Part shown: positions 4,129-61,745 of the stretch, piece after piece
Layout of the letters: the number at the start of each line of letters is the position of its first letter
Position numbering within the stretch: position 1 is the stretch's first letter
Source: Mytilus edulis
Taxonomy: Eukaryota
Reading direction: 5' to 3'
DNA: 64,000 bases
Assembly: GCF_963676685.1 (NCBI RefSeq)
Contig: NC_092346.1
Coordinates: forward strand, 39,494,001 to 39,558,000
Notes under the pieces: generated by a model
What the model was told of the DNA's origin: nothing
What the model saw: the letters and a program-made list of their open reading frames with translations, nothing else
Databases searched by the model: none
Made by a program: the position numbers and the translations under genes

Positions 4129-4234
4129 AACTTTGGAAGGGAGATAATTTGTCCCGTCACCTTTACTTCCGTTATACCAGGTTGACAACAGCACCAAAAT
4201 ATATTTGCAGAACATTATAATATACATAGAAGGT
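4129..4234 (+). promoter_or_regulatory. Conserved upstream module and 5'-UTR exon donor of TRIM copy 1
   Basis: The block GGAAGGGAGATAA..TCCCGTCACC..TACTTCCGTTATACC recurs at 27462-27511 and 58161-58207. Each copy is followed by ATACATAGAAG|GT(G/A)AGT (donors at 4233, 27612, 58301). It contains GATA-like (AGATAA) and ETS-like (ACTTCCG) motifs. Confidence 0.55.
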
Positions 4235-5399
4235 GAGTTAGCGAAAATTTATCATGCCAAAGAAAATAGGTCCGTCAAAAGATTTACCTATATATTGTGC
4301 TACTTTTTTTTTTATTTTAATCGTATAAACATGTACCAAAAAATCAATTTTCTTCCTCTTTCACAAACTGAAGTGGTGAAAAGTTAGATTTGAAATTATT
4401 TGATAAGAGTTGAATATGTTTATTCAGTTAGGGAAAATTTACTTTCTTTCTGTGAATGTTGAATTATTTCGTTGCAACCGAAAACATGGAAGGTGCAAAA
4501 ATGAAGTAAACATGGAAAATTGTAATTAATTGTATATTCATATACTAGGAATGATAGTGTTTCCATTGATCTTCGATGAAAATATAACTGCCGTTGTATA
4601 AAGCTTCACTATTTATTGTCGATTTGTATGTAATTCCATACATATCTGTTGATCGCTAGTAATAGGAAATCAAATAATGGGAGGAACCTATATCAGTGCA
4701 TTTGATTTACCATCAGAACTTGTTTTAGTCTGACTATGTCTAATTAGATTTGGAAAGGAAGCAATCATAATAATGAAACAAAATATTAATAACTAATTTT
4801 TACAATTAAATTAAAAAAAAACAACATTAATTTACAGTGGCTATGGAGAGAATCGTAAATAATGTACGTTGTTGTTTTTAGATGTGTTGTTTTAATTAAA
4901 TATTAGTGTAATAAGCAAATCTTGAATTATCCCCAACAACTTGGGATACCTAAAAGTTATGTAACGCCCTCTTAGTGTATCTTTGAATCTATAGATTTGT
5001 TTTTTCTCTTTGTCTTTTTATGTATAGCGAGATTCATCAACTTACTTCAAAGTTAGGTATTTATCTACGCGTAAATACAAACAACACATTCATTACACAA
5101 ATATTTTACTCCATAAAACAAGTATAAAAAGTTACCGATTTAAAGATTACTTATTGAAATACGAATGGCGCAAATGAAAGAGTAAATTTCAGTGCAACTA
5201 AAATTCTTATGTCGGCACATATGAAATATTAGTAATTCTTCCAATTGTATTGGGATAAATAAAATGCCTTTTGATATTTTACTCCATTTTTTTTATTTTT
5301 ACAAAAGATGTCAATACTAATGTACTACAATTCATGCATGTACTTTAATATTAACCAACATTTATTGTATAAGGGATTCATATCTGTAGTTTAAATATT

Positions 5400-5880
5400 T
5401 AGAAACATCTTTGGTGCATTTTTGTCCTCATTGCTCTTTAACTTCGTACTATTTGGCCTTTTTAACTTTTTTGGATTCGAATTCACTGATGAGTCTTTTG
5501 AAGACGAAACGCGGGTCTGGTGTATATAAAAAATGTAATCCTGTGACTATGATGAGTTTATCTACAACCACTGGGTCGATGTCACTGGTGGTTGAGTTTT
5601 AATTCCCCGAGGGTATCATCAGCCCAGTAGTCAGCACTTCTGTGATGTCATGAATTTTCATTGATATGGTTAAATTTATAAATTAACTGTTTACAATATT
5701 TAGAATTTTTGAAATACTAAGGCTTTTCTACTTCAGGAATAGTTAAATTTAGCTGTATTTGGCAAAACTTTTAGAATTTTGGTCCTCAATGCTCTTCAAC
5801 TTCGTACGTCACTGGTTTGTAGACGAAACGCGCGTCTGACGTATATAAAAAAAAATCCTGGTATCTATGATGATTTATTT
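5400..5880 (+). mobile_element. Retrozyme-like repeat with two tandem type I hammerhead motifs
   Basis: CTGATGA-GTCT-tttga-AGAC-GAAA-Cgcgg-GTC at 5486-5517. A second, partly deleted motif (AGACGAAACGCGCGTCTGACGTA) lies ~320 bp downstream with the same flanks. Confidence 0.8.
5481..5525 (+). ncRNA. Hammerhead ribozyme motif (type I, minimal stem III)
   Basis: Intact CUGAUGA core, stem II GUCU/AGAC, GAAA and a GUC cleavage triplet. Stem I is weakened relative to the other copies. Confidence 0.7.
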
Positions 5881-6243
5881 AAACACATTCCAAACTACTA
5901 CACGACCAAATATACAAAAATATATAGGAATTAAATTTATGTATTGTCTTTCAGATAAAAATAAACAACACTTTTTTTCGAGATGCAAATAACCACGTAA
6001 CATTTCACTACAATTTATTGTGCTGAAATATATTTTGACTTATGGAAATACCAGTATAATAAAAAATATATTGATTATTCCATTTACAATAGGTTTGGAA
6101 AACATCTCCCTAGTTTCTATCATTTCGAGTGTTAGAAATCCCTAACCTTTAGGTTAGTTTAAACGAAGGTATCGTCACAATCATTTTCAACTTAAACAAA
6201 ATGCGGTATCTAATCTCCCACGAGCATTTACGTTTAATTTATA

Positions 6244-7795
6244 CTAGAACACACCCGTGAAATCGCTGGTCCGTGACTGAATTAAAGTATATAACTAAGT
6301 GTAAGCCTTATTTCAGCCTGGATATTTAGTATTGATATTGTCATCTGATAAGGTCATGCTGATTATAAGATGCACAGTTTTCTCTACTTTCAAAATCTTT
6401 CTGTTCGAAACCGTCGACCTGGAACTTATCAATTATTGGTATAATTAATTATTTGAAAAACAATAGGGCCTGGAATGGAGTATTTTTTTTATCAACAGCA
6501 TTGTCCAATATTTGTTATAAATAAAGTTGAATTCTTCGTTTCTCTGTTTTGCGTCATGCCGGCTAACAAATTGAAAACTGTACTTATATATACGCCTTAT
6601 TTTAAGTCTAGGTTTTTATATTCGTATTGTCATCGTTTAAAGTCCTACTGATTAAAATACTACAATAGGAAACAATGTAACAATTATAGAATTTAGTAAT
6701 GCCATCCCTGTGATTATTACCCGTGTATATAGCAAATCATAAATACACCGTTTGGTGGTGTGCCTGTCAAATGCGGAACGTACAGATAAGGTCCAGGTGG
6801 CACGGTAGTATTTTCTGGCCCATAAGAGATAATGATAGCCTTTTTAGAATTTTCACCTCTTTCCACACCGCAAAAAAATCTACATTTACAGTTAACTGAA
6901 GTACTTTCATTTTACTATTCAGAAATGAATTTGAATATGTATCATGACCGTTTACTTTTTTTACTATTTTTAAAAACCTATGGCCACTAGAACATTCATG
7001 GTGCAGTGAATACAAAATTAAAAAAAATCTCAAAAATTCATTTTCATCTGTATGTAAAATTATTTCATATTTTTCCACACCTGATTCATTTCTCCGTTTG
7101 GGAAAGTATGTTCAGATGATACTGTATTTTTTGTCCAATCACACTGTTTAGATACATTGTAGGGTACACAAAAGAGCAACTTAAATTCTGGAATGCAAAT
7201 ACTACCATGCCACCTTAAATAGGTTACATGTGGATATACTATTGGTATCGGTATCGGATTCGACCAAGAACTTGTTAATTATTGGCAATATTAATTATTG
7301 GGAAAATAAAAGGGTCTGAAGCGGTGTTATTTTAAATCAACACCATTGTCCTATATTAGCTATATATAAAGTTGAATTCTTAGATTTGTCGTATTTACCC
7401 CATGACAGCTGACAAATTGGATCTCGTTATTTAAGTATTAAGGACAATGATAGAATTTAGTAATGTCATCTCTTTGATTATGACCCGTGTATATAGCAAA
7501 TTCTAAATACAACGTTTAGTAGTGCGCCTATCAGATGCGGAACGTACATATGGTACAGATAAGGTATCTATAGGTTACATGTGAATATACTATTGGTATC
7601 GGTATCGGATTCTACCCGGAACTTGTTAATTATTGGCAATATTAATTATTGGGAAAACAAAAGGGTCTGAAGTGGTGTACTTTTTAATCAACGCCATTGT
7701 CCTATATTAGCTATATATAAAGTTGAATTCTTAGATTTGTCGTATTTACCCCATGACGGCTTACAAATTGGACCTCGTTATTTTAGTATTATAGA
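6244..7795 (-). mobile_element. Non-autonomous Helitron with internal tandem repeats
   Basis: On the - strand it begins A|TCTATAATACTAAAA and ends with a subterminal hairpin (ACCAGCGATTTCACGGGT) plus CTAG|T, which is the canonical TC...CTAG in an A|T target. Internal ~350-bp repeats are present. Confidence 0.8.
6796..7214. mobile_element. Nested MITE (Kolobok-like)
   Basis: TIRs GGTGGCACGGTAGTATTT / AAATACTACCATGCCACC, with right flank TTAA. It interrupts one Helitron repeat unit; the uninterrupted version is at ~7555-7580. Confidence 0.7.
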
Positions 7796-8591
7796 TATGT
7801 TTAACATTGTAAAAAATGTTTTGCATGTTATTTTCATTAACCTGGCACATTCTATGTAATAATTTAACAGAACGTATGAAAATAGTTCACTCTACTTATT
7901 TTTATGCGACCCATTGTATGCTTGTATTGCTGAAACACCACAAACAACAGTCTTTTAGACACTATTTAATCAAGTTTAAGACGGTGGAAGATTCCAAGAC
8001 TTCAATGACTTTTAGCACAATATATACATCGATACACCGAGACTACCGAAGCGAGTAAGATTCAAGGGGATAAGTTGGTAAACACAAATATTAAAAATGA
8101 TATATAGGGAGAGATATCTACAGTTGTAGTTAAAAATGAATTTTTATAGCCATAAAGTATCCACTTTTTATTTTCCCAAGTAAAACACCTTATTTCTGGG
8201 TTTACTTTTATCAAGAATTAGCAAAGCCAAATATTTGATAGCCAAGGATTTATATGAACAGAAAACGGGTAAGAGCTATATAATGAATGAAAACCTATAT
8301 GAATAACTAAATCCATCTAAGGTCAGCTTTGCCTGGGGGAGTTGAAACACATGAAAGGATTGTTATAAATCATAACAGTACCAAATTACTAACCTACGAA
8401 CTGATGATACCCTCGATGGCTGATATTTCACCAACAAAGGTATCGACCCAGTGCTGTAAAAATAAAGATAACAGAATATAAATTGTATGCGTTTGAAGCG
8501 TATAACATTAAGCTTCTAAACAAATTTCAGTAATTTTTGTTATATCAAAGTACGTTAAAACATATGTTTATAATTTGAATGTCTTTTCAGG

Positions 8592-10136
8592 ATGGCATCT
8601 AAGGTGCTTATATGTGACCCATGTTCTAGACTGAATAAATCCACTGAAGCCATAAAGTTTTGCACAGATTGTGACGATGCGCTATGTACAGATTGCACTA
8701 CTGCCCACAGTGCTCTAAAGATTACTATTTCTCATAACGTGGTTGATGCGTCTGTTTTAACTGGCCGTGCTTTCAATTTGAAAAAATACTGCAACGATCA
8801 TCAAGAAATGCCTTTCGAATTTTTCTGTACAGATCATGATTGCTTACTTTGCCGATCATGTATGGCCAATACACATCGTACTTGTGGTAAAATTTTACCG
8901 ATAGATGTCGCTGCAAAAGGGGTTAAGTCTTCAGTTATGTTTGATGATATGAGTAAGGATATTGCTGCTTTACGAGACTCATCAAAGGAACTAGTTGAGG
9001 ACAGACAGAGGAACCAAAAACGAGTCGGACAGACTAAAAAATTGATACTACAAAAGATAACAAAGTTTAGAAAAAAAATTAATAAGCATCTGGATAAATT
9101 GGAAAAGAAACTTTCCGCTGATGTGGAGGTTATGGAGAGGGAACTTGAGCAAAAAGCATCGAAAGGGCTAATTGAAGCAGAAACGAGAGCAAAAGAGATA
9201 GAATATATCTGGGAACAAGTTAAGATTCTTACTGAACACGGTTCTGAAAGTCAGATGCTTATCCTCCTAAATGCAGTAAGATTGGAAATTACAAAACAAT
9301 CAACAAATCTTAAGGAGCTGATGATGTCACTAGAAACAAATGGCTTCGATTTTGAAAATATAGATTTGGTATCTGCCATTAGCTCCATTGGATCAGTGAA
9401 AGGTACGTCCTTTCCATGTTCCGTTCCATACCAGCCTCCTAAACATATGCAGGCACAAATGCAACAAAATCATGAAGAAGCACCAACAAGGTCTGAGTTT
9501 GAAAAGAAAATTGATGTTCCCTCGGGCAGAATCACGTGTATAGCTGTTACTGATAATGGATTTATAATGTGTAATGATATGCTAGATAGCTTTAAAGATA
9601 ATGTGATAGCATACACGAAGACTGGCGAAAAGTATAAATCGTGCACTGTCTCCAATAGGGTGTATGGTATAGCTATTATACCAAACACAGAAGAAGCAGT
9701 TGTTAGTTTGCCTGAGGCCAAGATTATTCAATTTGTAAAGTTATCAAGCATGATGACTGGTAGACAACTTCAAGTTACCATTAAGGACATGTTTATGTAT
9801 GGCATTGCAGTCGTACGTGATACAATAATTGTAAGTGGGAGCTCTGGTAATGTTTATTTCATTGAGAAAATGAAAGGGAAATGTCTTAAAACTTTTACAA
9901 TTGGTACAGGTTCCATTTGTTCATTTCTGCCAATTATAAGCGCAGGATCTGCTGCTCCATTTAAAACCAGTGCAGCCCCTTCACTCACTAATGACTGGTC
10001 TGCATATACCGACGACTGGTCTACTAGTGCCGTCGACTCGTCTGCTATTCCTGTTGCAACAACACGCACAACCAACTGGGGCGGAAACAGTGCTGAAGAC
10101 TGGTCTGTAAGTGGTGCCGACGACTGGTCTGTTTAA
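8592..10136 (+). CDS. RING-less TRIM-like protein copy 1 (B-box1/B-box2/coiled-coil/partial propeller) fused to an RPSA-like DWS-repeat tail
   Basis: 514-aa ORF preceded by acceptor TTTCAG|G-ATG. It has CxxC..CxxC..CxxC..H and CxxH..CxxH..CxxC..H B-boxes and is colinear with the paralogs up to ...PIISA (9944). It then continues GSAAPFKTSAAPSLTNDWSAYTDDWSTS...TNWGGNSAEDWSVSGADDWSV. Confidence 0.85.
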   Translation: MASKVLICDPCSRLNKSTEAIKFCTDCDDALCTDCTTAHSALKITISHNVVDASVLTGRAFNLKKYCNDHQEMPFEFFCTDHDCLLCRSCMANTHRTCGKILPIDVAAKGVKSSVMFDDMSKDIAALRDSSKELVEDRQRNQKRVGQTKKLILQKITKFRKKINKHLDKLEKKLSADVEVMERELEQKASKGLIEAETRAKEIEYIWEQVKILTEHGSESQMLILLNAVRLEITKQSTNLKELMMSLETNGFDFENIDLVSAISSIGSVKGTSFPCSVPYQPPKHMQAQMQQNHEEAPTRSEFEKKIDVPSGRITCIAVTDNGFIMCNDMLDSFKDNVIAYTKTGEKYKSCTVSNRVYGIAIIPNTEEAVVSLPEAKIIQFVKLSSMMTGRQLQVTIKDMFMYGIAVVRDTIIVSGSSGNVYFIEKMKGKCLKTFTIGTGSICSFLPIISAGSAAPFKTSAAPSLTNDWSAYTDDWSTSAVDSSAIPVATTRTTNWGGNSAEDWSVSGADDWSV

Positions 10137-10348
10137 CTGTTTTTTTTGGTACGTATCGGTTACTAGTATTTGAATGTTTATAAAGGATCCTACCACCAGT
10201 TTTCAGCACTGCTTCCACACCAGTCGGTTCTGTTACTCCTGCCACAAAAGCACATTCAACCGACTGGTGTGGAAGCAGTGCTGAAAACTGGTGGTAGGAT
10301 CCTTTATAAACATTCAAATACTAGTAACCGATACGTACCAAAAAAAAA
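9947..10348 (+). other. Processed-mRNA-like insert resembling the 3' end of ribosomal protein SA (uS2/laminin receptor): coding tail, short UTR, poly(A)
   Basis: Acidic DWS repeats like the metazoan RPSA TEDWS tail. The distal part reads SVTPATKAHSTDWCGSSAENWW*, then ~40 nt, then A9 (10340-10348). It is flanked by CAGG (9943-9946 and 10349-10352, a possible TSD). TRIM homology resumes immediately after. Confidence 0.75.
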
Positions 10349-10351
10349 CAG
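10137..10351. repeat. Near-perfect inverted repeat (93/94-bp arms, 28-nt loop)
   Basis: 10137-10229 is the reverse complement of 10258-10351; the only difference is T8 vs A9. Confidence 0.97.
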
Positions 10352-10525
10352 GTGAAGTGGTATACTGACGTGAATATATCGATTACAAGAAATTCAAAGT
10401 TATGAAACTGGATAGAAGTTAACGTTCATCTTGTGATTTAATAATACAGTGGATATAATATAAGACTCAAAAGAAATTTGTATGTCGCCTGTGTCGATTC
10501 TGATGAATAAAATCACCTGTCAAAC
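10351..10525 (+). pseudogene. Decayed remnant of the displaced TRIM propeller C-terminus
   Basis: GEVVY*REYIDYKK...KLDRS*...DSK..LYVACVDSDE*NHLS aligns to paralog DEVLYCSEYSGNKK...KLDGTF...DSKRNVYVACYDFSELHRLT, with four stops plus indels. Confidence 0.85.
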
Positions 10526-11103
10526 ATTGGTATCGATTAGTATAGAAAAAAGTATGTACTATGAAATTTAGAGTGTGGTTACCTTTTCATAACTATCCAA
10601 TTTTGAACATATTTACAACTCAAGTAATCTTTTAATTGGTCTATAGATAGTTTATTTTGACTGACTTCTTGGATATCTATGTTAAATTTTTTAGAGGATT
10701 AATAATTATACTAGAATTTCTTTATGTACATCTGTTCAATATTATATCAATTTAATGCAATTAATGAGGTAGGTTGTTAAAAGCGTAATTGTGTTGCTCT
10801 GTTTGTTCATTTTGGGTTTTTTTTGTAAAAAAAAGTCTATTGTTCGGATATAAAAGCAACAATATTATTTTTCTTCTATGAAATAAGGTCGTGCATATAA
10901 TCAGGATTTTGATTTAAGTTAAACTCAATTGTCAAGTTGGTAAACTTTGTCGTTTCTTTTTGAAATTATGCATGTGAAAGGTAAATGTTTTTGTTCGTCC
11001 AAATTCTTAAACATATATATTTAGGGCTAGACTCGTCTATATATATTAGCGAGTATTATATATATATAAATAGATTAATATTAATATGTCAATATATATA
11101 TAT

Positions 11104-19187: not shown

Positions 19188-21278
19188 TGTACGAATCACA
19201 TAAAGTTTAACTTAAGGGCGAAGAGATGAGTATGCGAGTTAGTTTGCATCATGTATCTATCTTTTATTCATAAAATCATATGGTCGCTAACAATCGCATA
19301 CTCATCTCTTCGCCCTTAAGTTAAACTTTATGTGATTCGTACAATTCTCAACTATAATCTGTCTAATAAAAAACAATGTGCATCCGTATGTAATCAAATA
19401 AAGTCTAGACGACGAAGCGCACGTCAAAGGCGAAACGTCACAAAACAGAAACGGGAAAATGTGTTGTTCAAAAGAGCGCAACGTTACATTAGCGCTTTCA
19501 TAAATAAATAGTAAAAACTGAGTTTCGTATTCTTACAAAAATAAATGAATACGTTAGTTAAACAATCAATTAATAATAAACTTATATTTCAAATTTGAAT
19601 ATTTCAAATCTTACACTCCCCACAATGAAATTACCAAATAATTTCTTAATACAGTTTGAAAAATGTAATACAATTTTGTCACCAATAAAAAATAGTTCTA
19701 TTTAGAACACTCGAGTAAGCATAGTTTATTTATAGGTCTCAAAATATGTGACTGACTAGTTTTGACCACGCAGCTACGGATGTGACCATCACGGCTCCTT
19801 GTGACCTCGACTATTCTACCTAAAGGCCATTGTCCTCTCTGTATACGTTCATCAGCAACTAAAACAATATCGTCTATTTCAACATCTCGTTCTTCCCTCT
19901 GCCATTTTCTTCTTTGATGTAGGGTTGGTAAGTATTCCCTCAACCAACGTTTCCAGAATTCATTCGCTAGGTGTTGTATTTGTTTCCACCAACGTTTTGC
20001 ATATATATCCTTTTTGTCAAACACACCTTGTGGTGTTGACGTGTTGCTCTTCATCAATAATAGCATATTTGGCGTTAAAACTGGTAAATCACGACAATCG
20101 TCACTTATTGCTGTTATCGGTCTATCATTCATAATACGCTCAGTTTCGGCCATAAATGTCAGTAATTGTTCATCGCTAAGTAGTTGTTGATTGATCAGTG
20201 CTTTAAAAATGTTCCTTGTTGAACGAATCATTCGTTCCCATGCACCACCGCGGTGACTTGCATATGGTGGATTAAATGTCCAAATAATGTCCTTGTGTAG
20301 CATATAATTTGATATAGTTGCTTTATTCCATTGTTCAATGTTTTTTCGAAGTTCGATTTCACCGCCAACGAAATTTGTTCCATTATCACTGTAGACTTTT
20401 CGGGAATGCCTCGTCTACTTGTAAAGCGTTGAAAGGCTGAAATAAAAGAATCCGTATTTAAACTGTGGGCTATTTCTATATGAACCGCTCTTGTTGTAAG
20501 GCAGGTAAAGAGGCATCCATATCTCTTAACAACTGACCGTCCAAGTTTAACGTTTAATGGACCAAAGTAGTCAACTCCGACAAAGGTAAAAGGAGGTTTG
20601 TCTGCAGTCATCTGTTCCTCGAGTAGGGGTGCCATCTGCTGTTTACAAAACGGGCCATGTTGTCGTTTGCATGGTACGCAACGATCGATAACTGTCTTCA
20701 CAGCACTGGATCCTTTCAATATCCAATATTTTTCACGAGAAGCTGCAAGCACCTGTTGTTTTCCCACGTGTCCCGTGGTTTCGTGATAATAACGGATGAT
20801 AAGCGTAGTCACGTGATGTTTGTTTGGCAGTATTACGGGACAAGTGCTTAAGTCATAATTTAGGCGCCCTTTTGATCGGATAAGTTCATTAACCAAAACA
20901 GTTAGTTTGCACCATGTATCTATCTTTTATTCATAAAATCATATGGTCGCTAACAATCGCATACTCATCTCTTCGCCCTTAAGTTAAACTTTATGTGATT
21001 CGTACAATTCTCAACTATAATCTGTCTAATAAAAAACAATGTGCATCCGTATGTAATCAAATAAAGTCTAGACGACGAAGCGCACGTCAAAGGCGAAACG
21101 TCACAAAACAGAAACGGGAAAATGTGTTGTTCAAAAGAGCGCAACGTTACATTAGCGCTTTCATAAATAAATAGTAAAAACTGAGTTTCGTATTCTTACA
21201 AAAATAAATGAATACGTTAGTTAAACAATTAATTAATAATAAACTTATATTTCAAATTTGAATATTTCAAATCTTACA
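19188..21278 (-). mobile_element. Internally deleted BEL/Pao LTR retrotransposon (integrase only)
   Basis: 364-bp LTRs at 19252-19615 and 20915-21278 (TGTA...TACA, one difference seen), PPT GGGGAG, PBS start TGGTGC, and a 5-bp TSD GAAAC (19183-19187 / 21279-21283). Confidence 0.95.
19698..20896 (-). pseudogene. BEL/Pao integrase (H2C2 zinc finger, DDE core, DUF5641-like C-terminus) with a 1-nt frameshift
   Basis: YHETTGH..CVPC, GVDYFGP, CLTTRAVHIE, SDNGTNF (after the frameshift at ~20397-20400), GGAWERMIRS, FWKRWLREYL, WPLGRI. Confidence 0.93.
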
Positions 21279-28778: not shown

Positions 28779-29396
28779 CAGTTAAAATAATAAATAGATA
28801 TAGGAAGATGTGATATTAGTGGCAATGAGACAACTCTCCATCAAAATAACAATATATAAAAATAAACCATTATCGGTCAAGGTACGGCCTTCAAAACGGA
28901 GCCTTGGCTCACACCGAACAGCAAGCTATAAAGGGCCCCACAAATTAATAATGTAAAACCATTCAAACGGGAAAACCAACGGTCTAATCTATATAAAAAC
29001 GAGAAACGAGAAACACGTATGAACTACATAAACTGACGACAACTACTGTACATATGTGCAAACCACGAGTCTAAATGCCTTGCTTGCAAACTTTGTTTAT
29101 TTGTTTGCTCAGGCAATGTAATTAAGATTGACACCTAAATTCAATGGAGAGGCGGAGTAACAGTTTGTTTACTATATAAAAAAAGAGTTGATTGGACAAT
29201 GGATATTATTTTTTGGAAACAATCTTGATATTCATTGACCAATTAAACCCTTGTGTATGGTAAACAGACTGTTATATTCCACCTACCCATTGAATTTATG
29301 TGTCAATCTTAATTACAATGTCTGAGCAAACAACAAAGCAAAGTTGACAAGCAAGTCATTTAAACTCTTGGTTTGCATGCTTTATTATTTTAACTG
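28779..29396. mobile_element. Fold-back MITE with TA TSD (Tc1/mariner-like), interrupted by a SINE-like insert (28795-29055)
   Basis: TA|CAGTTAAAATAATAAA ... TTTATTATTTTAACTG|TA; 29057-29380 is a long imperfect palindrome. Confidence 0.75.
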
Positions 29397-37342: not shown

Positions 37343-38909
37343 ACCAGATGCTCCGCAGAGCGCAGCATTATACGACCGCAGAGGTCGAACCCTGAACAGT
37401 TGGGGCAAGTATGGACACAACATTTAAGCTTGATACAGCTCTGAATTTGGATTGTGATTAAATAGTTGACACAACATAGGTTTCTGACACAGAATGAATG
37501 TGATCTAAGAACTTAAACTTAAAACTTAAAATTTTTAAATTGGACCTATTATGGTCCAATATCCAAAATCTAAATGCATGGTTAGATTCAGCATATCATA
37601 GAACCCCAAGAATTCAATTTTTGATGAAATCATATAATGTTCAATTTTAGACCCTTTAGACCTCAATGTGGACCAATTTGATAACCAGGCCCAAATATTA
37701 AAAATCTAAATACATGGTTAGATTCAGCATATTGAAGAACCCCATATATTAAATTTTTTGTTGAAATCAAACAAAGTTTAATTTTTGACCCTTTGGACCT
37801 TAATGTAGACCAATTTGAAAACGGGACAATACTGTGCAATTGAATGTTTCTTGCTATTGCGCAAAACTGTGCAATTGAAAATGTCTTGCTATTGCACAAT
37901 ATTGTGCAATTAGATACATCTTGCTATTGCGCAATACTGTGCAATTGAAGATTTCTTACAATTGCACAATACTGTGCAATTGAAGAGTTCTTGCTATTGG
38001 GCAATACTGTGCAATTGCAAATTTCTTGCTATTGCACAATACTGTGCAATTAAAGATTTCTTGCTATTGTGGAAAACTATGCAATTGAAAATTTCTTGCT
38101 ATTGCACAATACTTAATATAATAATTTTGGACCCCAATTTGGACCAACTTGAAAACTGGGCCCATAATCAAAAATTTAAGTACATGTTTAGATTCAGCAT
38201 ATCAAAGAACCCCAAGAATTCAATTTTTGTTAAAATCAAGCTAAGTTTAATTTTGGACCCTTTGGACCTTAATGTAGACCAATTTGAAAACTGGACCAAC
38301 AATTAAGAATCTGAATACACGGTTAAATTTGGAATATCAAAGACCCCCAATCATTAATTTTTTGATGAAATCAAATAAAGTTTAATTTTGGACCCTTTTG
38401 GACCCTAATTCGTTGGGACCAAAACTCCCAAAATCAATCCAAACCTTCCTTTTGTGGAAATAAACCTTGTGTTAAAATTTCATAGATTTCTATTAACTTA
38501 CACTAAAGTTATTGTGCAAAAACCAAGAAAAATGCTTATTTGGGAAATGTTTTTGGCCCCTTATTCCTAAACTGTTGGGACTAACACTCCCAAAATCAAT
38601 CCCAACCTTCCTTTTGTGGTCATAGACCTTATGTTAAAATTTCATAGATTTCTGTTCACTTATACTAAAGTTATTGTGCGAAAACCAAGAAAAATGCTTA
38701 TTTGGGCCCTTTTTGGCCCACAATTCCTAAATTGTTGGGACCAAAACACTCAAAATCAATCCCAATCTTCCTTTTATGGTAATTAACCTTGTGTTTAAAT
38801 TTCATAGATTTCTATTTACTTTTACTAAAGTTAGAGTGCAAAAACCAAATGTCTTCGGACGACGACGCCAACGTGATACCAATATACGACCAAAAAAGCG
38901 GTCGTATAA
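37343..38909 (-). mobile_element. Helentron-type MITE with 31-bp and larger internal tandem arrays
   Basis: AACCAGATGCTCCGCAG..TTATACGACCGC at one end and (GAC)n plus TATACGACC..GGTCGTATAA at the other. The same family occurs at 62040-64000. Confidence 0.8.
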
Positions 38910-41900
38910 TGAAATATTGCTTCATTCTGATACTGTTCAAATAAATGCTGTGGTCTGCATAGTCTACTTGCCGTTTCACTTTCATTTAACACAAGGGCGA
39001 ACAGGATTATAGGAATACAGCCGTAACAATGACATCTAGTGTTGTAATTTGGGCAATATAACCCTTGCTTTAGAAATTTAGCTAGCTATAAAACCAGGTT
39101 TAATCCACCATCTTCTACAGTAGAAAATGCCTGTACTAAGTCAGGAATAAGACGGTTGTTATCCATTTGTTTGATGTATTTGAGCTTTCGATTTTGCAAT
39201 TTGATTACGGACTGTTAGTTTTGAATTTTCAACAGAGTTCAGTATTTTTGGGATTAGACTTTTTGCTAAAGTGGGGAAAAGTATAGTCGAAAAAAGAAAG
39301 TATATACAATGACCATGTAAAGAGTGCCACACTCTCTAAATGCTAATTAACCCTTGTTAAAACTCTTTAAATGAGTCCAGAGACGGTCAGTTGTGAGCCA
39401 ACTTTCTATCCCCTGTCTAACATAGCCTCATTATTACAGTGGATGTTACAATTCTCACCTTTGATACCATTGACCCACTTAGCCGAATATGAATATATGC
39501 ATGAAATATTTACCACTGGACATTAAGCAAATAAAAATTAATGAAGCTTAGCCTTCTCCTACATCAACACAATTAAATAGATATTCTTCTTCAGATGGAG
39601 ATGTAAAAATATATAAAATTTCTGATGAATTCCAACTTAAAACCTTTTTTTCCAAATAACAACCTCCATTTTTAGCGTTCATGAATAAAACAAACTATAA
39701 ATCCAGTGTATAAAAATTTTATTTCAATCACACATCATATACAATTCACTCCCTCATTCTTCTTTCATGATTCAAGCACAAATACATACATACACACACA
39801 CACATACATTTATTCTCCTCCACTCATACCAAATTCACCCTCAGCTGAGATGCTCAGCACTGCTGCCTTTAACATACTCCCCATCACAGATTTTACTTCA
39901 AGGGTCCATAAACTTTCTTTCCAACTTCTTTGTAATAAATAATTACTGTCTCTTTCTGCATAAACTTGCAACTATTTTTTTTTTACAAATTTGCATAAAT
40001 TGCAAAATTATAGTCTCATTCATTCACTGCCAAAATTGCAACTGTGTTTCATCAATCAACAGTTATCATTAATTTTGTTAAATTCATCATTATCACAAAT
40101 CAACAACAAACTGTCAGATAATTTGAATGTCCATAATAACATGATATAAATAAATGAGGAAATGAAAACTGATTGCACTGCTGTCATGATTATTTAACAA
40201 GTCCTAATTTTTTAGCCTCTGTTTCATACACCAACAGTCTCCACATTTTAACAATAAATACCTCTGCCTCTTCATCAAGAACCTACAAAATACATATATC
40301 ATATATATCATCATTACATACATTTAAAATCAATAACATTGCTAGTCACAGTGGCACAATTGATACTTTTAAAAGAGCAGCATACAGTGAACAGCAGCTA
40401 GGAAATATTACTGATCAATTATCAATCAAATGTAAAAGTAAACTGTTGTAGTGAAATGTCTACATTCCTTATTGCTCTTACTAATAAATGAAAGGCTTTG
40501 TAATGATGTAAATATAGAAAAGTTATGACCATAGGAGTTTGGACATAATAATTACAAAAATTTTGCTTAGTTTAAAATAATGTCTGAGGAAAATAAATAA
40601 TGTTTCCTTTAAAGGCATTTATTTCCTGATTTAATTTTTCAAAACTTTATTCAAATATATTTTGTATATTATTATTCTGGTAATTAAAGTCATAAGAAAC
40701 GAGTGACCGGTGAAAAATAATGTTCTTCTAATTCTTGAACATCAAATAATGTTCAATTTTAGACCCTTTAGACCTCAATGTGGACCAATTTGATAACCAG
40801 GCCCAAATATTAAAAATCTAAATACATGGTTAGATTCAGCATATTGAAGAACCCCATATATTAAATTTTTGTTGAAATCAAACAAAGTTTAATTTTTGAC
40901 CCTTTGGACCTTAATGTAGACCAATTTGAAAACGGGACAATACTGTGCAATTGAATGTTTCTTGCTATTGCGCAAAACTGTGCAATTGAAAATTTCTTGC
41001 TATTGCACAATATTGTGCAATTAGATATTTCTTGCTATTGCGCAATACTGTGCAATTGAAGATTTCTTAATATTGCACAATACTGTGCAATTGAAGATTT
41101 CTTGCTATTGGGCAATACTGTGCAATTGCAAATTTCTTGCTATTGCACAATACTGTGCAATTAAAGATTTCTTGCTATTGTGGAAAACTATGCAATTGAA
41201 AATTTCATGCTATTGCACAATACTTAATATAATAATTTTGGACCCCAATTTGGACCAACTTGAAAACTGGGCCCATAATCAAAAATTTAAGTACATGTTT
41301 AGATTCAGCATATCAAAGAACCCCAAGAATTCAATTTTTGTTAAAATCAAGCTAAGTTTAATTTTGGACCCTTTGGACCTTAATGTAGACCAATTTGAAA
41401 ACAGGACCAACAATTAAGAATCTGAATACACGGTTAAATTTGGAATATCAAAGACCCCCAATAATTAATTTTTTGATGAAATCAAATAAAGTTTAAATTT
41501 GGACCCTTTTGGACCCTAATTCGTTGGGACCAAAACTCCCAAAATCAATCCAAACCTTTCTTTTGTGGAAATAAACCTTGTGTTAAAATTTCATTGATTT
41601 CTATTAACTTATACTAAAGTTATTGTGCAAAAACCAAGAAAAATGCTTATTTGGGAAATGTTTTTGGCCCCTTATTCCTAAACTGTTTGGACTAAAACTC
41701 CCAAAATTAATCCCAACCTTCCTTTTGTGGTCATAGACCTTATGTTAAAATTTCATAGATTTCTGTTCACTTATACTAAAGTTATTGTGCGAAAACCAAG
41801 AAAAATGCTTATTTGGGGCCTTTTTGGCCCACAATTCCTAAACCGTTGGGACCAAAACACTCAAAATCAATCCCAATCTTCCTTTTATGGTAATAAACCT

Positions 41901-57156: not shown

Positions 57157-59100
57157 TACTAACACGTCAATATCTAGCCATTTTAGTGTATCATCCTTTT
57201 TTATGTTCAGGTGTAGTGTACCACTAAGCAATTAACAAAATCCTAATGAAACTTGGAAAGGCCATGTCAGTTTTTTTTATTTAACTTGTAGTAACAATAA
57301 ATTAATCCGTTTTAATGTTCATCAGAGTTGGTTCTTTTTAGAATTAATAAAAAAAAATATAGATTGGTATCATTTACTGACTTGATTTTAAGTCTGAGAA
57401 ATCTTCTATTGTCTGTCGTAGTGCTTCATTTGTGTGCTTAGTGCTAGCAGTCACCGTTGAGCTGTTTCGTACCTATTTATTTGCATACTTTGTTTTATTT
57501 GTTATTGCATATTTTTTGTATTCGGTGAAAAATCACCAAATTTTGGTCAAATATTTGTCAATATTCCGAATCAAAACAAAGTTTTACATACTTACTATTA
57601 GAAAGAGCTGTCAAATGTGGACCTTCAAACGTATGAAAGCATGGCAAAACTAGAATAAATGCATTTGATTTTTTTCCGAGATTTGGAAATCTGATTTTGA
57701 AACTTATAGAACTTGGTTAAAATAGTAGAATCAATGTGACAATAGGTTGAAGAATCTCAAATTACGTAAATCGATTCAAACACCTGTCAGTGAATTAAAT
57801 TTGATAAGGATCTACTGTTGTGCATTAATCTGTTGTTCCTCTAATGTTATCATATCAATCATTACTAAACATTGCAATTATAACAATGAACATTTTCAAC
57901 ATCGTCCAAACTTAACTTATTTTGGAACCTTTTGTGAGAACAGAAAAAGATAATAACAAAATACATGCAGGTATTTTTTCTTATTTTCTGAATAATAAAA
58001 TGCACAAATTTTGATTCTCTTATAATTTGATCAAATTAACAATCAAATCCTGATGAACTGTGTTAAATTATACATTCAAATCAAATATTTTATATTTGCC
58101 GGTATAAATGTCAATAAGAAAAATAAGTGAAAAAAGTAAAATATTGTATAACGTTATATCTTGGGAAGGGAGATAATGTGTTCCGTCACCAATACTTCCG
58201 TTATACCTCCTAAATTATATATCTGTGCATATCGACACACAACAGTTCATATACCTTAAATCCAAAGTTTCTCTGCTGAAAATTTTCCTATACATAGAAG
58301 GTAAGTTTGCTAAAATTAAACATGCCAAAAACAAAAGGTCACTCCGAAAAGATTGAACTGTGTATTGTGCTACTTTTTTTTATGTCAATTGTTTTTGGCA
58401 TGTACCAAGTAAGTAATTTTCTTCCTCGTTCACTGAAGTAATGAAAAAAGATCGATATTATTTCATAAGAGTTAAATATGTTTATTCAGATTCTGTGAAT
58501 GTTGCATTGTTTCGTTGCTACAAAAGGTGTAAAAATAAACAAAAAATAGAAAGTGAAAGTAATGATATTGTTTCCTTTTATCTTCGATGAAATTATATAA
58601 GTGCTGTTGTTTAAAGCTTCATAATTAAAAAGGGTGATTTTGATGTTATTTTCTACCTGTTATTATACTATTATACACCTGCTGATCGCTTGTCATAAGA
58701 ACTCAAATAATGGGAGACGCCTACATCAGTACATAAAATTCGACCTCATAAACGTTATTATTCGACCTCAGAACGTGTTATTACTTGGACTTAAGAAAAG
58801 TAAGATAACAAGAATACTGAACTCCGGGGAAATTCGAAACGCAATATCCCTTATCAAATCACAAAATCAAAATATAAAACACATCAAACGAATGGATATA
58901 ACAACTGTCATATTCCTGACTAAGTACAGACATTTTCTTATGTAGAAATTGATGATTTAAACATGCTTTTAAAGCTAGCTAAACCTCTTAATTGTGTACC
59001 AGTCAAGTATTAGTCCATTATATTGACAACGATTTGTGAACAACACAAACAGATTTAATAGGTATATATGTCAAAAATAGGGGTAGAGTCGTCAATAGTT

Positions 59101-60044: not shown

Positions 60045-61745
60045 ATGGCATCTAAGGCGCTGATTTGTGACCCATGTTCTAGATTAAAAAAATCATCTAG
60101 CGCCATAAAGTTCTGTACAGATTGCAACGATGCGCTATGTACAGATTGCACTTCTGTTCACAGCGCTCTAAAGATTACTAGTTCTCATCACGTGGTTGAT
60201 ACGTCTGATTTAACCGGTCGTACTTTCAAGTTAAAAAAATACTGCAACGATCATCAAGGTATGCCTTTAGAGTTTTTCTGTTCAGATCATGATTGCTTAC
60301 TGTGCCGATCATGTATGGCTAATACCCATCGTACTTGTGGTAAGATTCTACCATTAGATGTCGCGGCTAAAGGGATAAAGTCTTCAGTCATGTATGATGA
60401 TATTTATAAAGATATTTCTGCATTACGGAAGTCGACAAAGGAGTTAGTAGAAGATAGAGAGAAGAACAAGAAACACATAGGAAGGACCAAAGAATCGACA
60501 CTACAAAAGGTTAAAAAGTTTAGAAGTGATATTAATAAGCATCTCGATAAATTGGAAAAGAAAGTTGCGTCTGGTGTGAGTTTTTTGGAGAGCGAACTTG
60601 AAAAAAAAGCTTCGACCGATCTGTCTGAAGCGGAAACAAGAGATAAAAATATAGAAGATATATGGGAACAAGTCAATTTTCTTTCAAAACATGGTTCCGA
60701 AAGTCAAATGCTTATCCTGCTGAATGAAGTAAGACCAGAAATTATCAAACAATCAACAAATCTCCAGGAGATGATTCTGTCTCTAGATATGAATGGCATT
60801 GATTTTGAACAGGTCGATTTGATATCTTCCATAAGTTCCATTGGATTGGTGAAGCCGACGTCTTCTCCATGTTCTGTGTCATACCAGCCTCATAAACATC
60901 TACAAGCACAAATACAACAAACACAGGACAGAGAACCAACAAAGTTCGAGTTTGAAAAGAAAATTCCTGTACATTTGGGCAGAATCTCTTGTATAGCTGT
61001 AACTGACGACAATATATTACTTCTGTGTAATGACATGATTAGTAACTTTAAAGATAATGTAATAGCATGCAGAGAAACAGGTGTGCAGATTCAAGCATGT
61101 ACTATTTCCGAAAGGGTATTTGGTATAGCTATAATACCACATACAAACGAAGCAGTCGTTAGTTTGGTTGATGTCAAGATTATCCAATTTGTCAATTTAT
61201 CAAGCATGATGCTTGGTAGACAACTCCAGGTTACTATGGCGGACTACGGCATGTATGGTATTGCAGTAGTTCGTGATACAATAATTGTCGGTGGGACCTC
61301 TGGAAATGTGTACTTTATTGAGAAAACAAATGGAAAATGTCTTAAAACTGTTGAAATTGGTAAAGGCAATATAATTTCACTCATGCCATTTATAAGCGCT
61401 AAAGATGAAGTGCTATATTGCTCTGAATATTATGAATATAGCGCTAACACGAAAGTTCATAGCTTGAAACTGGATGGAACTTTTATTTCCAGTTGTGAAC
61501 TAAACAAACCATTTGGAATGACTTTAGATTCAAAAAGAAATGTTTACGTCACATGTTACAACTCTCATGAACTGCATCGTCTGTCCCCTGACCTAAAAGT
61601 CAATAAAATCCTGTTAAAGAAATCAGATGGAATTGACACACCATTGAGTGTTGCTTTCAACAATACATATAGTAAGCTGTACATTTCAAACAGTGGGTTT
61701 GATAAAAGTGTTTTGATTTTCAATTGCAAATGGAACAAACAATGA
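60045..61745 (+). CDS. RING-less TRIM-like protein copy 4 (two B-boxes, coiled-coil, NHL-like beta-propeller), intact
   Basis: 566-aa single-exon ORF after TTTCAG|G-ATG, colinear with copy 3. The stop is changed TGA>TGG, extending the C-terminus by WNKQ. Confidence 0.92.
   Translation: MASKALICDPCSRLKKSSSAIKFCTDCNDALCTDCTSVHSALKITSSHHVVDTSDLTGRTFKLKKYCNDHQGMPLEFFCSDHDCLLCRSCMANTHRTCGKILPLDVAAKGIKSSVMYDDIYKDISALRKSTKELVEDREKNKKHIGRTKESTLQKVKKFRSDINKHLDKLEKKVASGVSFLESELEKKASTDLSEAETRDKNIEDIWEQVNFLSKHGSESQMLILLNEVRPEIIKQSTNLQEMILSLDMNGIDFEQVDLISSISSIGLVKPTSSPCSVSYQPHKHLQAQIQQTQDREPTKFEFEKKIPVHLGRISCIAVTDDNILLLCNDMISNFKDNVIACRETGVQIQACTISERVFGIAIIPHTNEAVVSLVDVKIIQFVNLSSMMLGRQLQVTMADYGMYGIAVVRDTIIVGGTSGNVYFIEKTNGKCLKTVEIGKGNIISLMPFISAKDEVLYCSEYYEYSANTKVHSLKLDGTFISSCELNKPFGMTLDSKRNVYVTCYNSHELHRLSPDLKVNKILLKKSDGIDTPLSVAFNNTYSKLYISNSGFDKSVLIFNCKWNKQ

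What the first reader, a model, noticed from the sequence alone, without database searches (positions are those of the whole stretch)
10128..10351. Secondary inverted duplication creates the stop codon and a 93-bp dsRNA hairpin in the chimera's 3' UTR
Seen: the left arm (10137-10229) is an inverted copy of the insert's 3' end, including the poly(A) and the next 3 nt (CAG). It is bounded by the direct repeat TCTGTT (10128-10133 / 10229-10234) and brings in the TAA that ends the ORF. Removing it restores ...DDWSV-TPATKAHSTDWCGSSAENWW*, a 20-aa longer tail. The arms are essentially identical, so the event is recent or maintained. Inference: the mRNA would form a long stem right after the stop. 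It could be a Dicer or ADAR substrate or an RLR ligand, and could yield small RNAs antisense to the RPSA 3' end.
Basis: partly seen in the sequence, partly recalled or inferred. Interest (0 to 1): 0.7.

Follow-up and report, generated by a model that had tools for sequence, protein, structure and literature searches.

The report
Young mussel mRNA hairpin, still polymorphic
In some mussels a short piece of a gene's 3' end has been copied back-to-front next to itself, shortening the protein by 20 residues and predicting a perfect 90-bp RNA hairpin, while other mussels carry the older form without it; the hairpin is likely edited and largely harmless rather than a silencing signal.

Summary
The inverted duplication is real and not an assembly artefact. 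The arms match exactly over 90 nt (10140-10229 / 10258-10347, 28-nt loop). The insert supplies the stop of a spliced B-box/coiled-coil/partial-propeller gene whose tail derives from the last exon of RPSA. It is a segregating allele. Of 8 public runs laid, 4 carry the arm junction and 4 carry the arm-less form with the 20-aa longer tail. A 91%-identical protein from another Mytilus assembly is also arm-less. The arm-less form is collinear with RPSA and occurs in two haplotype groups, so it is ancestral. The arm is young, which alone explains the arm identity. The junction (short target duplication, CTGTT three times) points to one microhomology-guided fold-back event. Corrections: the 'poly(A)' is an expanded genomic A5 of RPSA, not a tail. 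No stem 21-mer matches RPSA perfectly, and published work finds no dedicated endo-siRNA pathway in molluscs. Best reading: a near-neutral truncating allele whose mRNA stem is probably an ADAR substrate. No RNA fate was shown. Its value is as a natural plus/minus-hairpin allele pair.

The parts
4178..4232 (+). Non-coding 5' exon of the host gene (5' end approximate); donor GT at 4233
   Evidence: The loose 5' end of the X4 contig matches here with 1 mismatch
8592..10136 (+). Single coding exon: B-boxes, coiled-coil-like region, partial beta-propeller, RPSA-derived tail; 514 aa in the arm allele
   Evidence: (zf-B_box E=1e-11); intron 4233-8590 GT..AG
9942..10348 (+). Older insert from the last exon and start of the 3' UTR of RPSA, internally duplicated; holds the whole hairpin
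   Evidence: alignments to L003; parent confirmed by Pfam 40S_SA_C and Ribosomal_S2; one parent locus found
10128..10133 (+). First copy of the target-site direct repeat TCTGTT
   Evidence: read laying joint with 6 letters fitting either side
10134..10136 (+). New TAA stop, brought in with the insertion
10137..10229 (-). Left arm: inverted copy of 10258-10351 (T8 against A9); its outer end holds a third CTGTT (10137-10141)
   Evidence: junction in X1, X6, X7, X13
10230..10257 (+). 28-nt loop, starting with the second target-site copy; coding in the arm-less allele
10258..10351 (+). Right arm (template): end of the ancestral RPSA-like tail, old stop, RPSA 3' UTR remnant, A-run, CAG
   Evidence: 67 of 84 aligned bases identical to RPSA, longest perfect stretch 19 nt
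10350..10560 (+). Decayed rest of the host propeller exon, now 3' UTR; first AATAAA after the stop is at 10506
   Evidence: 70-73% identity to two paralogs with 7-8 gap openings, against 79-81% with none just upstream of the insert

Best explanation
This is a polymorphic inverted duplication that adds a stop codon and shortens a mussel B-box/RPSA-tail chimeric protein by 20 residues; it likely arose recently in one fold-back repair event, and its predicted 90-bp mRNA stem is likely edited by ADAR with little effect on RPSA or other genes. Shown: the structure, both alleles, the arm-less form as ancestral, and splicing of the gene. Inferred origin: a break at the TCTGTT site; one end primed on the neighbouring strand, copied about 94 nt in reverse, and rejoined through the CTGTT/AACAG microhomology that the copied end shares with the target, leaving a 5-6-nt duplication and TAA. 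Inferred fate: the stem forms right after the stop, is deaminated, yields at most trace small RNA, and the allele drifts in a gene whose constraint appears relaxed at present.
For: Alleles: arm junction in 4 of 8 runs laid (X1, X7, X13 with 31 or more letters on both sides; X6 with only 14 nt past the divergence point) and the 101-nt skip in the other 4 (X4, X10, X12, X16), two of them DNA-type runs, so the skip is not a splicing or reverse-transcription artefact. P0009 from another assembly is 91% identical, arm-less, ends like RPSA and has more RPSA-like repeats. Polarity: the arm-less form is collinear with RPSA and is present in a near-identical group (X4: 3 substitutions in about 1.9 kb) and in a group about 3% divergent in the 3' region (X12, X16); arm alleles fall in the first group. 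Junction: CTGTT at 10129, 10137, 10230. A target duplication means the return point precedes the exit point, an order absent from 794 human-chimp replication template switches (PMC5453318 section 6); snap-back synthesis followed by microhomology annealing is described for alt-EJ (PMC5728401 passages). Fate: molluscs lack DICER2/siAGO; oyster host RNAs are hyper-edited; A_deamin loci in G000; in human reporters a duplex moved to 65 nt from the stop was edited but lost its translation effect, and the one 15 nt from the stop had none (PMC3458544 section 13). RPSA contigs are over 100-fold deeper than the chimera's in two RNA-type runs (2174 vs 16.7; 7817 vs 13.4; contig depth is a poor measure of expression). 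Constraint: long-term omega about 0.19 (36 syn: 26 nonsyn) against 1: 9 among haplotype SNPs, p = 0.006; 1: 6, p = 0.044 without the tail.
Against: No editing, small-RNA, 3'-end or protein data were seen; only assembled contigs were available. No single RNA contig spans both arms, so transcription of the full hairpin is inferred. Only X1 shows the whole two-arm graph, and it may be the source sample of the assembly; X7 and X13 show the left junction and arm, then the reverse of the loop end. The arm occurs under 3 of 4 organism labels and in half of the runs laid, which is common for so young an allele and could mean selection; but the query carried the arm, I chose 8 of 24 listed runs by hand, and these mussels hybridise (PMC11304980, abstract start in listing). 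The SNP test rests on 10 variants read from contig tables, and an excess of amino-acid polymorphism also fits diversifying selection or slightly harmful variants. The inner junction has only about 1 nt of clean microhomology, and the alt-EJ paper deals with structures within 30 nt of a break, far shorter than this 94-nt copy.
Confidence: 0.6

Rival explanations
1. The arm is a favoured cis-acting change: it lowers the mRNA or protein of this immune-type gene, or removes the RPSA-like C-terminal motif, and spread across hybridising mussel taxa by selection.
For: A very young allele in 4 of 8 runs, 4 studies and 3 organism labels. Arm haplotypes differ by only 0-2 substitutions per 1.2-1.6 kb. 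The 20 residues lost include the terminal motif best conserved against RPSA (13 of 23 codons identical).
Against: Ascertainment by an arm-bearing query. The nearest arm-less haplotype is almost as close (3 in about 1.9 kb), so low diversity is not specific to the arm. Duplexes close to the stop did not repress translation in human reporters. An arm-allele RNA contig exists at depth similar to an arm-less one (13.4 vs 16.7, different studies).
Confidence: 0.17
2. The stem is a nascent hairpin-RNA locus: the single Dicer (or Drosha after editing) releases guides that silence RPSA or, more efficiently, the arm-less allele in trans.
For: 11 of 70 left-arm 21-mers match RPSA with one mismatch, and 16 of 70 have a seed match. 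Left arm:RPSA duplex is -91.5 kcal/mol. The stem matches the closest arm-less haplotypes over its length. RNase III-domain loci are present at two places in G000. In mice a 3' inverted repeat (Optn) gives low-level siRNA, and a highly expressed hairpin gave RNAi with ordinary Dicer (PMC11239679 passages).
Against: No perfect 21-mer; the intramolecular pairing is far stronger (-165.1). No endo-siRNA signature in oyster. RPSA is in large excess. The stem is much longer than the ~35 bp preferred for pri-miRNAs (10.1101/2023.04.19.537475). All 9 Rfam matches are below gathering score.
Confidence: 0.08
3. The origin was an ordinary replication-fork template switch or two successive switches, not break repair; consequences as in the best explanation.
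For: Template switching makes perfect hairpins in one step and such events are polymorphic in humans. The TAA junction can be read as a slipped copy of flanking bases (sequence).
Against: The 5-6-nt target duplication needs the return point before the exit point, which was not observed in the human-chimp set.
Confidence: 0.3
4. Some arm-less copies are revertants made by deletion between the two TCTGTT repeats, or X7 and X13 carry a further rearrangement (inversion, or loss of the right arm) rather than the full hairpin.
For: Precise deletion between direct repeats would give the same joint. X7 and X13 contigs run from the arm into the reverse of the loop.
Against: Divergent arm-less haplotypes (X12, X16, P0009) cannot derive from the young arm haplotype. 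Arm-less A-runs are shorter (A6-A7), closer to the parent's A5. The path from arm into reversed loop is expected in an assembly graph of a hairpin.
Confidence: 0.08
5. Fold-back artefact of library preparation or assembly.
For: Perfect inverted repeats are a known artefact class (recalled).
Against: The same junction stands in four runs of four studies, and the arm contig has doubled depth in X1.
Confidence: 0.01

Closest known systems
Template-switch mutations that create hairpins and de novo miRNAs (PMC5453318; 10.1101/2023.04.19.537475)
   Same: One-step creation of a perfect inverted repeat from a nearby template; young and polymorphic
   Different: 94-nt copied segment with a target duplication (return before exit, not seen in the human-chimp set); the stem is far longer than a pri-miRNA; it also creates a stop codon
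Snap-back SD-MMEJ / polymerase-theta templated insertions (PMC5728401)
   Same: Inverted templated insertion closed by microhomology
   Different: Reported structures lie within about 30 nt of the break; the polymerase involved here is not shown
3' UTR inverted-repeat dsRNA such as inverted Alus in BPNT1, PSMB2 (PMC3458544) and mouse Optn (PMC11239679)
   Same: Long intramolecular duplex in an mRNA 3' UTR; BPNT1 is likewise just behind the stop
   Different: Not transposon-derived; perfect rather than partial pairing; 28-nt loop; segregating with an arm-less allele; editing not shown here
Pseudogene- or retrocopy-derived endo-siRNA loci of mouse oocytes and Drosophila hpRNAs (cited in PMC11239679; hpRNA details recalled)
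   Same: A hairpin made from a copy of another gene, with partial complementarity to the parent mRNA
   Different: Only about 80% identity to the parent; protein-coding host; a lineage reported to lack DICER2/siAGO; no small RNA shown

Membership tests
Templated inverted insertion (template switch / snap-back MMEJ) | Insert is a reverse-complement copy of sequence nearby | tested here: met
Templated inverted insertion (template switch / snap-back MMEJ) | An ancestral allele without the insert exists and is otherwise collinear | tested here: met
Templated inverted insertion (template switch / snap-back MMEJ) | Microhomology at the switch points | tested here: inconclusive
   5 nt (CTGTT) at the outer end but with an extra 8 nt; about 1 nt at the inner end
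Four-point replication template switch, observed types | Exit point precedes return point (no target duplication) | tested here: not met
   5-6-nt target duplication against PMC5453318 section 6
hpRNA / pseudogene-derived endo-siRNA locus | Transcript can form a long hairpin | tested here: met
   Predicted only
hpRNA / pseudogene-derived endo-siRNA locus | Phased 21-22-nt reads from the stem | not testable with these tools
   Only contigs of long-RNA and DNA runs were served
hpRNA / pseudogene-derived endo-siRNA locus | Fully complementary guides to a trans target (RPSA) | tested here: not met
   0 of 70 21-mers perfect, 11 with one mismatch
hpRNA / pseudogene-derived endo-siRNA locus | Dedicated Dicer-2/siAGO pathway in the host | tested here: inconclusive
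   Absent in molluscs by PMC11114477 and PMC12479628; in G000 only RNase III domains were counted (two places), Argonautes were not classified
miRNA gene | About 35-bp stem, or a match to a known family | tested here: not met
   90-bp stem; 9 Rfam hits, all below gathering score
ADAR-edited 3' UTR duplex | Long duplex inside a transcript, ADAR in the genome | tested here: inconclusive
   Duplex predicted; A_deamin loci present but not classified into ADAR/ADAD/ADAT; no RNA contig spans both arms
ADAR-edited 3' UTR duplex | A-to-G changes in RNA against matched DNA | not testable with these tools
   No raw reads or matched DNA/RNA pair was served
Processed retrocopy (the older RPSA insert) | Poly(A) tail at the parent's cleavage site | tested here: not met
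   The A-run aligns to a genomic A5 upstream of AATAAA
Processed retrocopy (the older RPSA insert) | Loss of an intron | tested here: inconclusive
   The insert lies inside the parent's last exon

The most novel reading that the evidence does not exclude
A hairpin-RNA gene caught at birth: one fold-back mutation turns a chimeric mussel immune-type mRNA into a source of small RNAs that silence its own arm-less allele (and nick RPSA) in an animal group thought to have lost endo-siRNA, and the allele has spread across hybridising species.
Probability: 0.08. Interest if true: 0.78.

Novelty: new member of a known kind. Interest (0 to 1): 0.38.

Why it matters
The mutation class is known, but the case is unusually clean. 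Nearly identical haplotypes with and without a perfect 90-bp 3' UTR duplex segregate in wild mussels. The fate of long endogenous dsRNA in molluscs is stated as open (PMC12479628), and oyster TRIM mRNAs are hyper-edited for unclear reasons (PMC9044936). Heterozygotes give an internal control for editing, dicing, decay and translation. I found no paper on this locus in the searches run and no earlier scan note.

Tried and rejected
(1) Coverage holes, not used as evidence. In RNA-type run X6 the contig stops at 10147, where the G/C-containing stem begins, and cover resumes at 10368. In X7 and X13 the right arm's flank is uncovered (10248-10555; 10234-10467). Hairpin drop-out, editing, low depth or the tool's filter could each cause this. 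(2) The 101-nt skip as an intron: no GT-AG in any register, and it stands in DNA-type runs. (3) Gene conversion keeping the arms alike: not needed. (4) Hairpins as a general feature of this gene family: no inverted repeat of 30 nt or more in 10 of 11 paralog loci of about 3.4 kb; one 44-nt, 91% pair in L014. So this does not explain oyster TRIM hyper-editing in general. (5) Protein searches with the tail region found no full-length chimera from elsewhere; only the 'shorter' search and cluster look-up found P0009. One search failed because my query carried one extra residue before the Met. (6) The ESM Atlas gave only sub-0.9 NHL-like leads. (7) Stop read-through helped by the stem would add 9 residues; untested. 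(9) No structure or complex prediction was run; it would not bear on the question.

Full report
Observation. The window holds a perfect inverted repeat: 10140-10229 against 10258-10347, 90 of 90 bases, with a 28-nt loop. It extends to the CTG/CAG ends only across a 1-nt difference in the homopolymer (T8 left, A9 right). TCTGTT stands at 10128 and 10229, and TAA at 10134-10136 ends the long ORF. The RNA folds at -171.1 kcal/mol, z = -26, with 0 of 200 shuffles as stable; the arm-less 150 nt give -33.1.

Host gene. The ORF starts at ATG 8592 and encodes 514 aa: B-boxes, a coiled-coil-like region (by eye and weak Pfam hits), part of a propeller shared with paralogs at 21.6, 29.8 and 60.0 kb, then a tail from RPSA. 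Named homologs are all Mytilus, so the window is most likely a mussel genome (inference). The parent lies on G000:C9, is confirmed by Pfam 40S_SA_C and Ribosomal_S2, and was found once. The rest of the propeller exon resumes at 10350 and has decayed. Two RNA-type runs have contigs that join at the acceptor before the ATG and leave the last intron bin uncovered (X4, X6). X4's loose end matches an exon ending at 4232. The gene is therefore spliced and expressed.

The A-run is not a poly(A) tail. It aligns with a genomic A5 in the RPSA 3' UTR, 14 nt before that gene's AATAAA. An RPSA contig of X4 runs through it. Arm-less alleles have A6 or A7. The insert comes from within one exon, so a retro origin is neither shown nor excluded.

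Both alleles exist. The run search listed 24 runs, 20 holding the stretch; I laid 8, chosen by hand for different studies and labels. Four carry the TAA-arm junction: X1, X7 and X13 with 31 or more letters on both sides, X6 with 14 nt past the point where the alleles part. X1 shows the whole hairpin graph, with the arm at doubled depth; it may be the assembly's own sample. Four skip exactly 10128-10228: X4 and X16 (RNA-type), X10 and X12 (DNA-type). No run showed both forms in the listed tables, but contigs drop rarer variants. The arm stands under labels A, B and C, the arm-less form under A, B and D. P0009, from another assembly, is 91% identical over 212 residues, arm-less, ends like RPSA and has more RPSA-like repeats.

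Polarity and age. The arm-less sequence is collinear with RPSA. It occurs both on haplotypes nearly identical to the window (X4: 3 substitutions in about 1.9 kb) and on haplotypes about 3% divergent in the 3' region (X12, X16). Arm haplotypes differ from the window by 0-2 substitutions in the contigs listed. The arm is thus derived and young. At those distances zero mismatches between arms has probability 0.84-0.94, so no maintenance is needed.

Origin (inferred). CTGTT occurs three times: at the target (10129), at the outer end of the copied arm (10137) and after the arm (10230). The copied end thus carried microhomology to the target. A target duplication means that synthesis returned to a point before it left. 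That order was not seen among 794 human-chimp replication template switches (PMC5453318, section 6 read). Snap-back synthesis and microhomology rejoining at a break is described in PMC5728401 (passages), though for much shorter distances. I put break repair at about 0.55, fork switching at 0.3 and others at 0.15.

Fate of the RNA (inferred). The first AATAAA after the stop is at 10506 and none lies in the arms. Arm-less RNA contigs reach 10504 and 10603. The arm allele should therefore transcribe both arms, but no contig shows it. For silencing of RPSA, 0 of 70 left-arm 21-mers match perfectly, 11 have one mismatch and 9 have two. Pairing with the own right arm (-165.1) beats pairing with RPSA (-91.5). 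Two papers report no dedicated endo-siRNA pathway in molluscs (PMC11114477 abstract and passages; PMC12479628 abstract and passages); the second suggests editing as the fate of repeat-derived dsRNA. Oyster host RNAs are hyper-edited, with 11 TRIMs among 217 genes edited in both experiments (PMC9044936 abstract and passages), and deaminase-domain loci are in this genome. In human reporters, inverted Alus 15-65 nt from the stop did not lower translation, and the shortened PSMB2 reporter was still edited (PMC3458544 abstract and section 13). Against a flat no: mouse Optn gives low-level siRNA from a 3' inverted repeat, and a strongly expressed hairpin caused RNAi with ordinary Dicer (PMC11239679 passages). 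That RIG-I needs a 5' triphosphate end and MDA5 much longer duplexes is recalled, not tested.

Does the truncation matter? The B-box-to-propeller part evolved under constraint: 36 synonymous and 26 non-synonymous single-base codon changes on its own branch, omega about 0.19, like two paralogs (a crude count). Among 10 coding SNPs read from the contig tables (paralog contigs left out by depth; one search hid 2 rows), 9 change the amino acid; Fisher p = 0.006, or 0.044 for the 7 outside the tail. This fits recently relaxed constraint, under which a truncating allele can drift, but diversifying selection or mildly harmful variants would look similar.

Comparison and verdict. It works like a one-step templated hairpin insertion (10.1101/2023.04.19.537475, first quarter of the text read; PMC5453318) that yields a 3' UTR duplex of the BPNT1/Optn type. 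It fails the tests for a miRNA gene and for perfect RPSA guides, and small-RNA membership could not be tested. Searches for a report of this locus (listings only) and for earlier scan notes found none; subscription papers are not covered and no supplements were read. Verdict: real, a new member of a known kind, probably near neutral, and useful as a natural test of what molluscs do with long endogenous dsRNA. Interest 0.38.

Noticed in passing
window 8592-10297: The chimera itself: a B-box/coiled-coil gene that lost the distal propeller and gained tandem acidic DW repeats from RPSA in frame. The fusion is old enough for the displaced exon part to decay and is expressed under 3 organism labels (A, B, D). 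It is arguably more interesting than the hairpin.
   Followed up: partly
window 8589 (run X6): X6's spliced 5' end differs from the exon at 4201-4232 at 5 of 30 letters; the best window match (3 mismatches in 23) is near 58276, upstream of the paralog at 60045. A divergent allele, another copy or a chimeric contig; unexplained.
   Followed up: partly
window 19188-19343: A second perfect inverted repeat (50-nt arms, 56-nt loop) at the break of the paralog starting at 18.7 kb. Its left part is a repeat with dozens of genome copies, next to integrase-like ORFs (19698-20926), so probably an LTR end with a local inverted copy.
   Followed up: partly
P0009 (CAG2254168.1): The divergent arm-less allele is annotated as a 239-aa protein with a different N-terminus, so that haplotype may be broken upstream, or mis-assembled.
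   Followed up: no
window 10292-10297: The window's haplotype has TGG where RPSA has its first TAG, adding one Trp to the arm-less tail; P0009 ends as RPSA does.
   Followed up: yes
window 8574-61745: Tandem cluster of at least four B-box/propeller paralogs, one interrupted by a mobile element; 76 matches to the propeller part genome-wide.
   Followed up: no
window 29057-29377, 37826-38050, 40937-41161: Imperfect inverted repeats (70-79%), one just upstream of the paralog at 29.8 kb.
   Followed up: no
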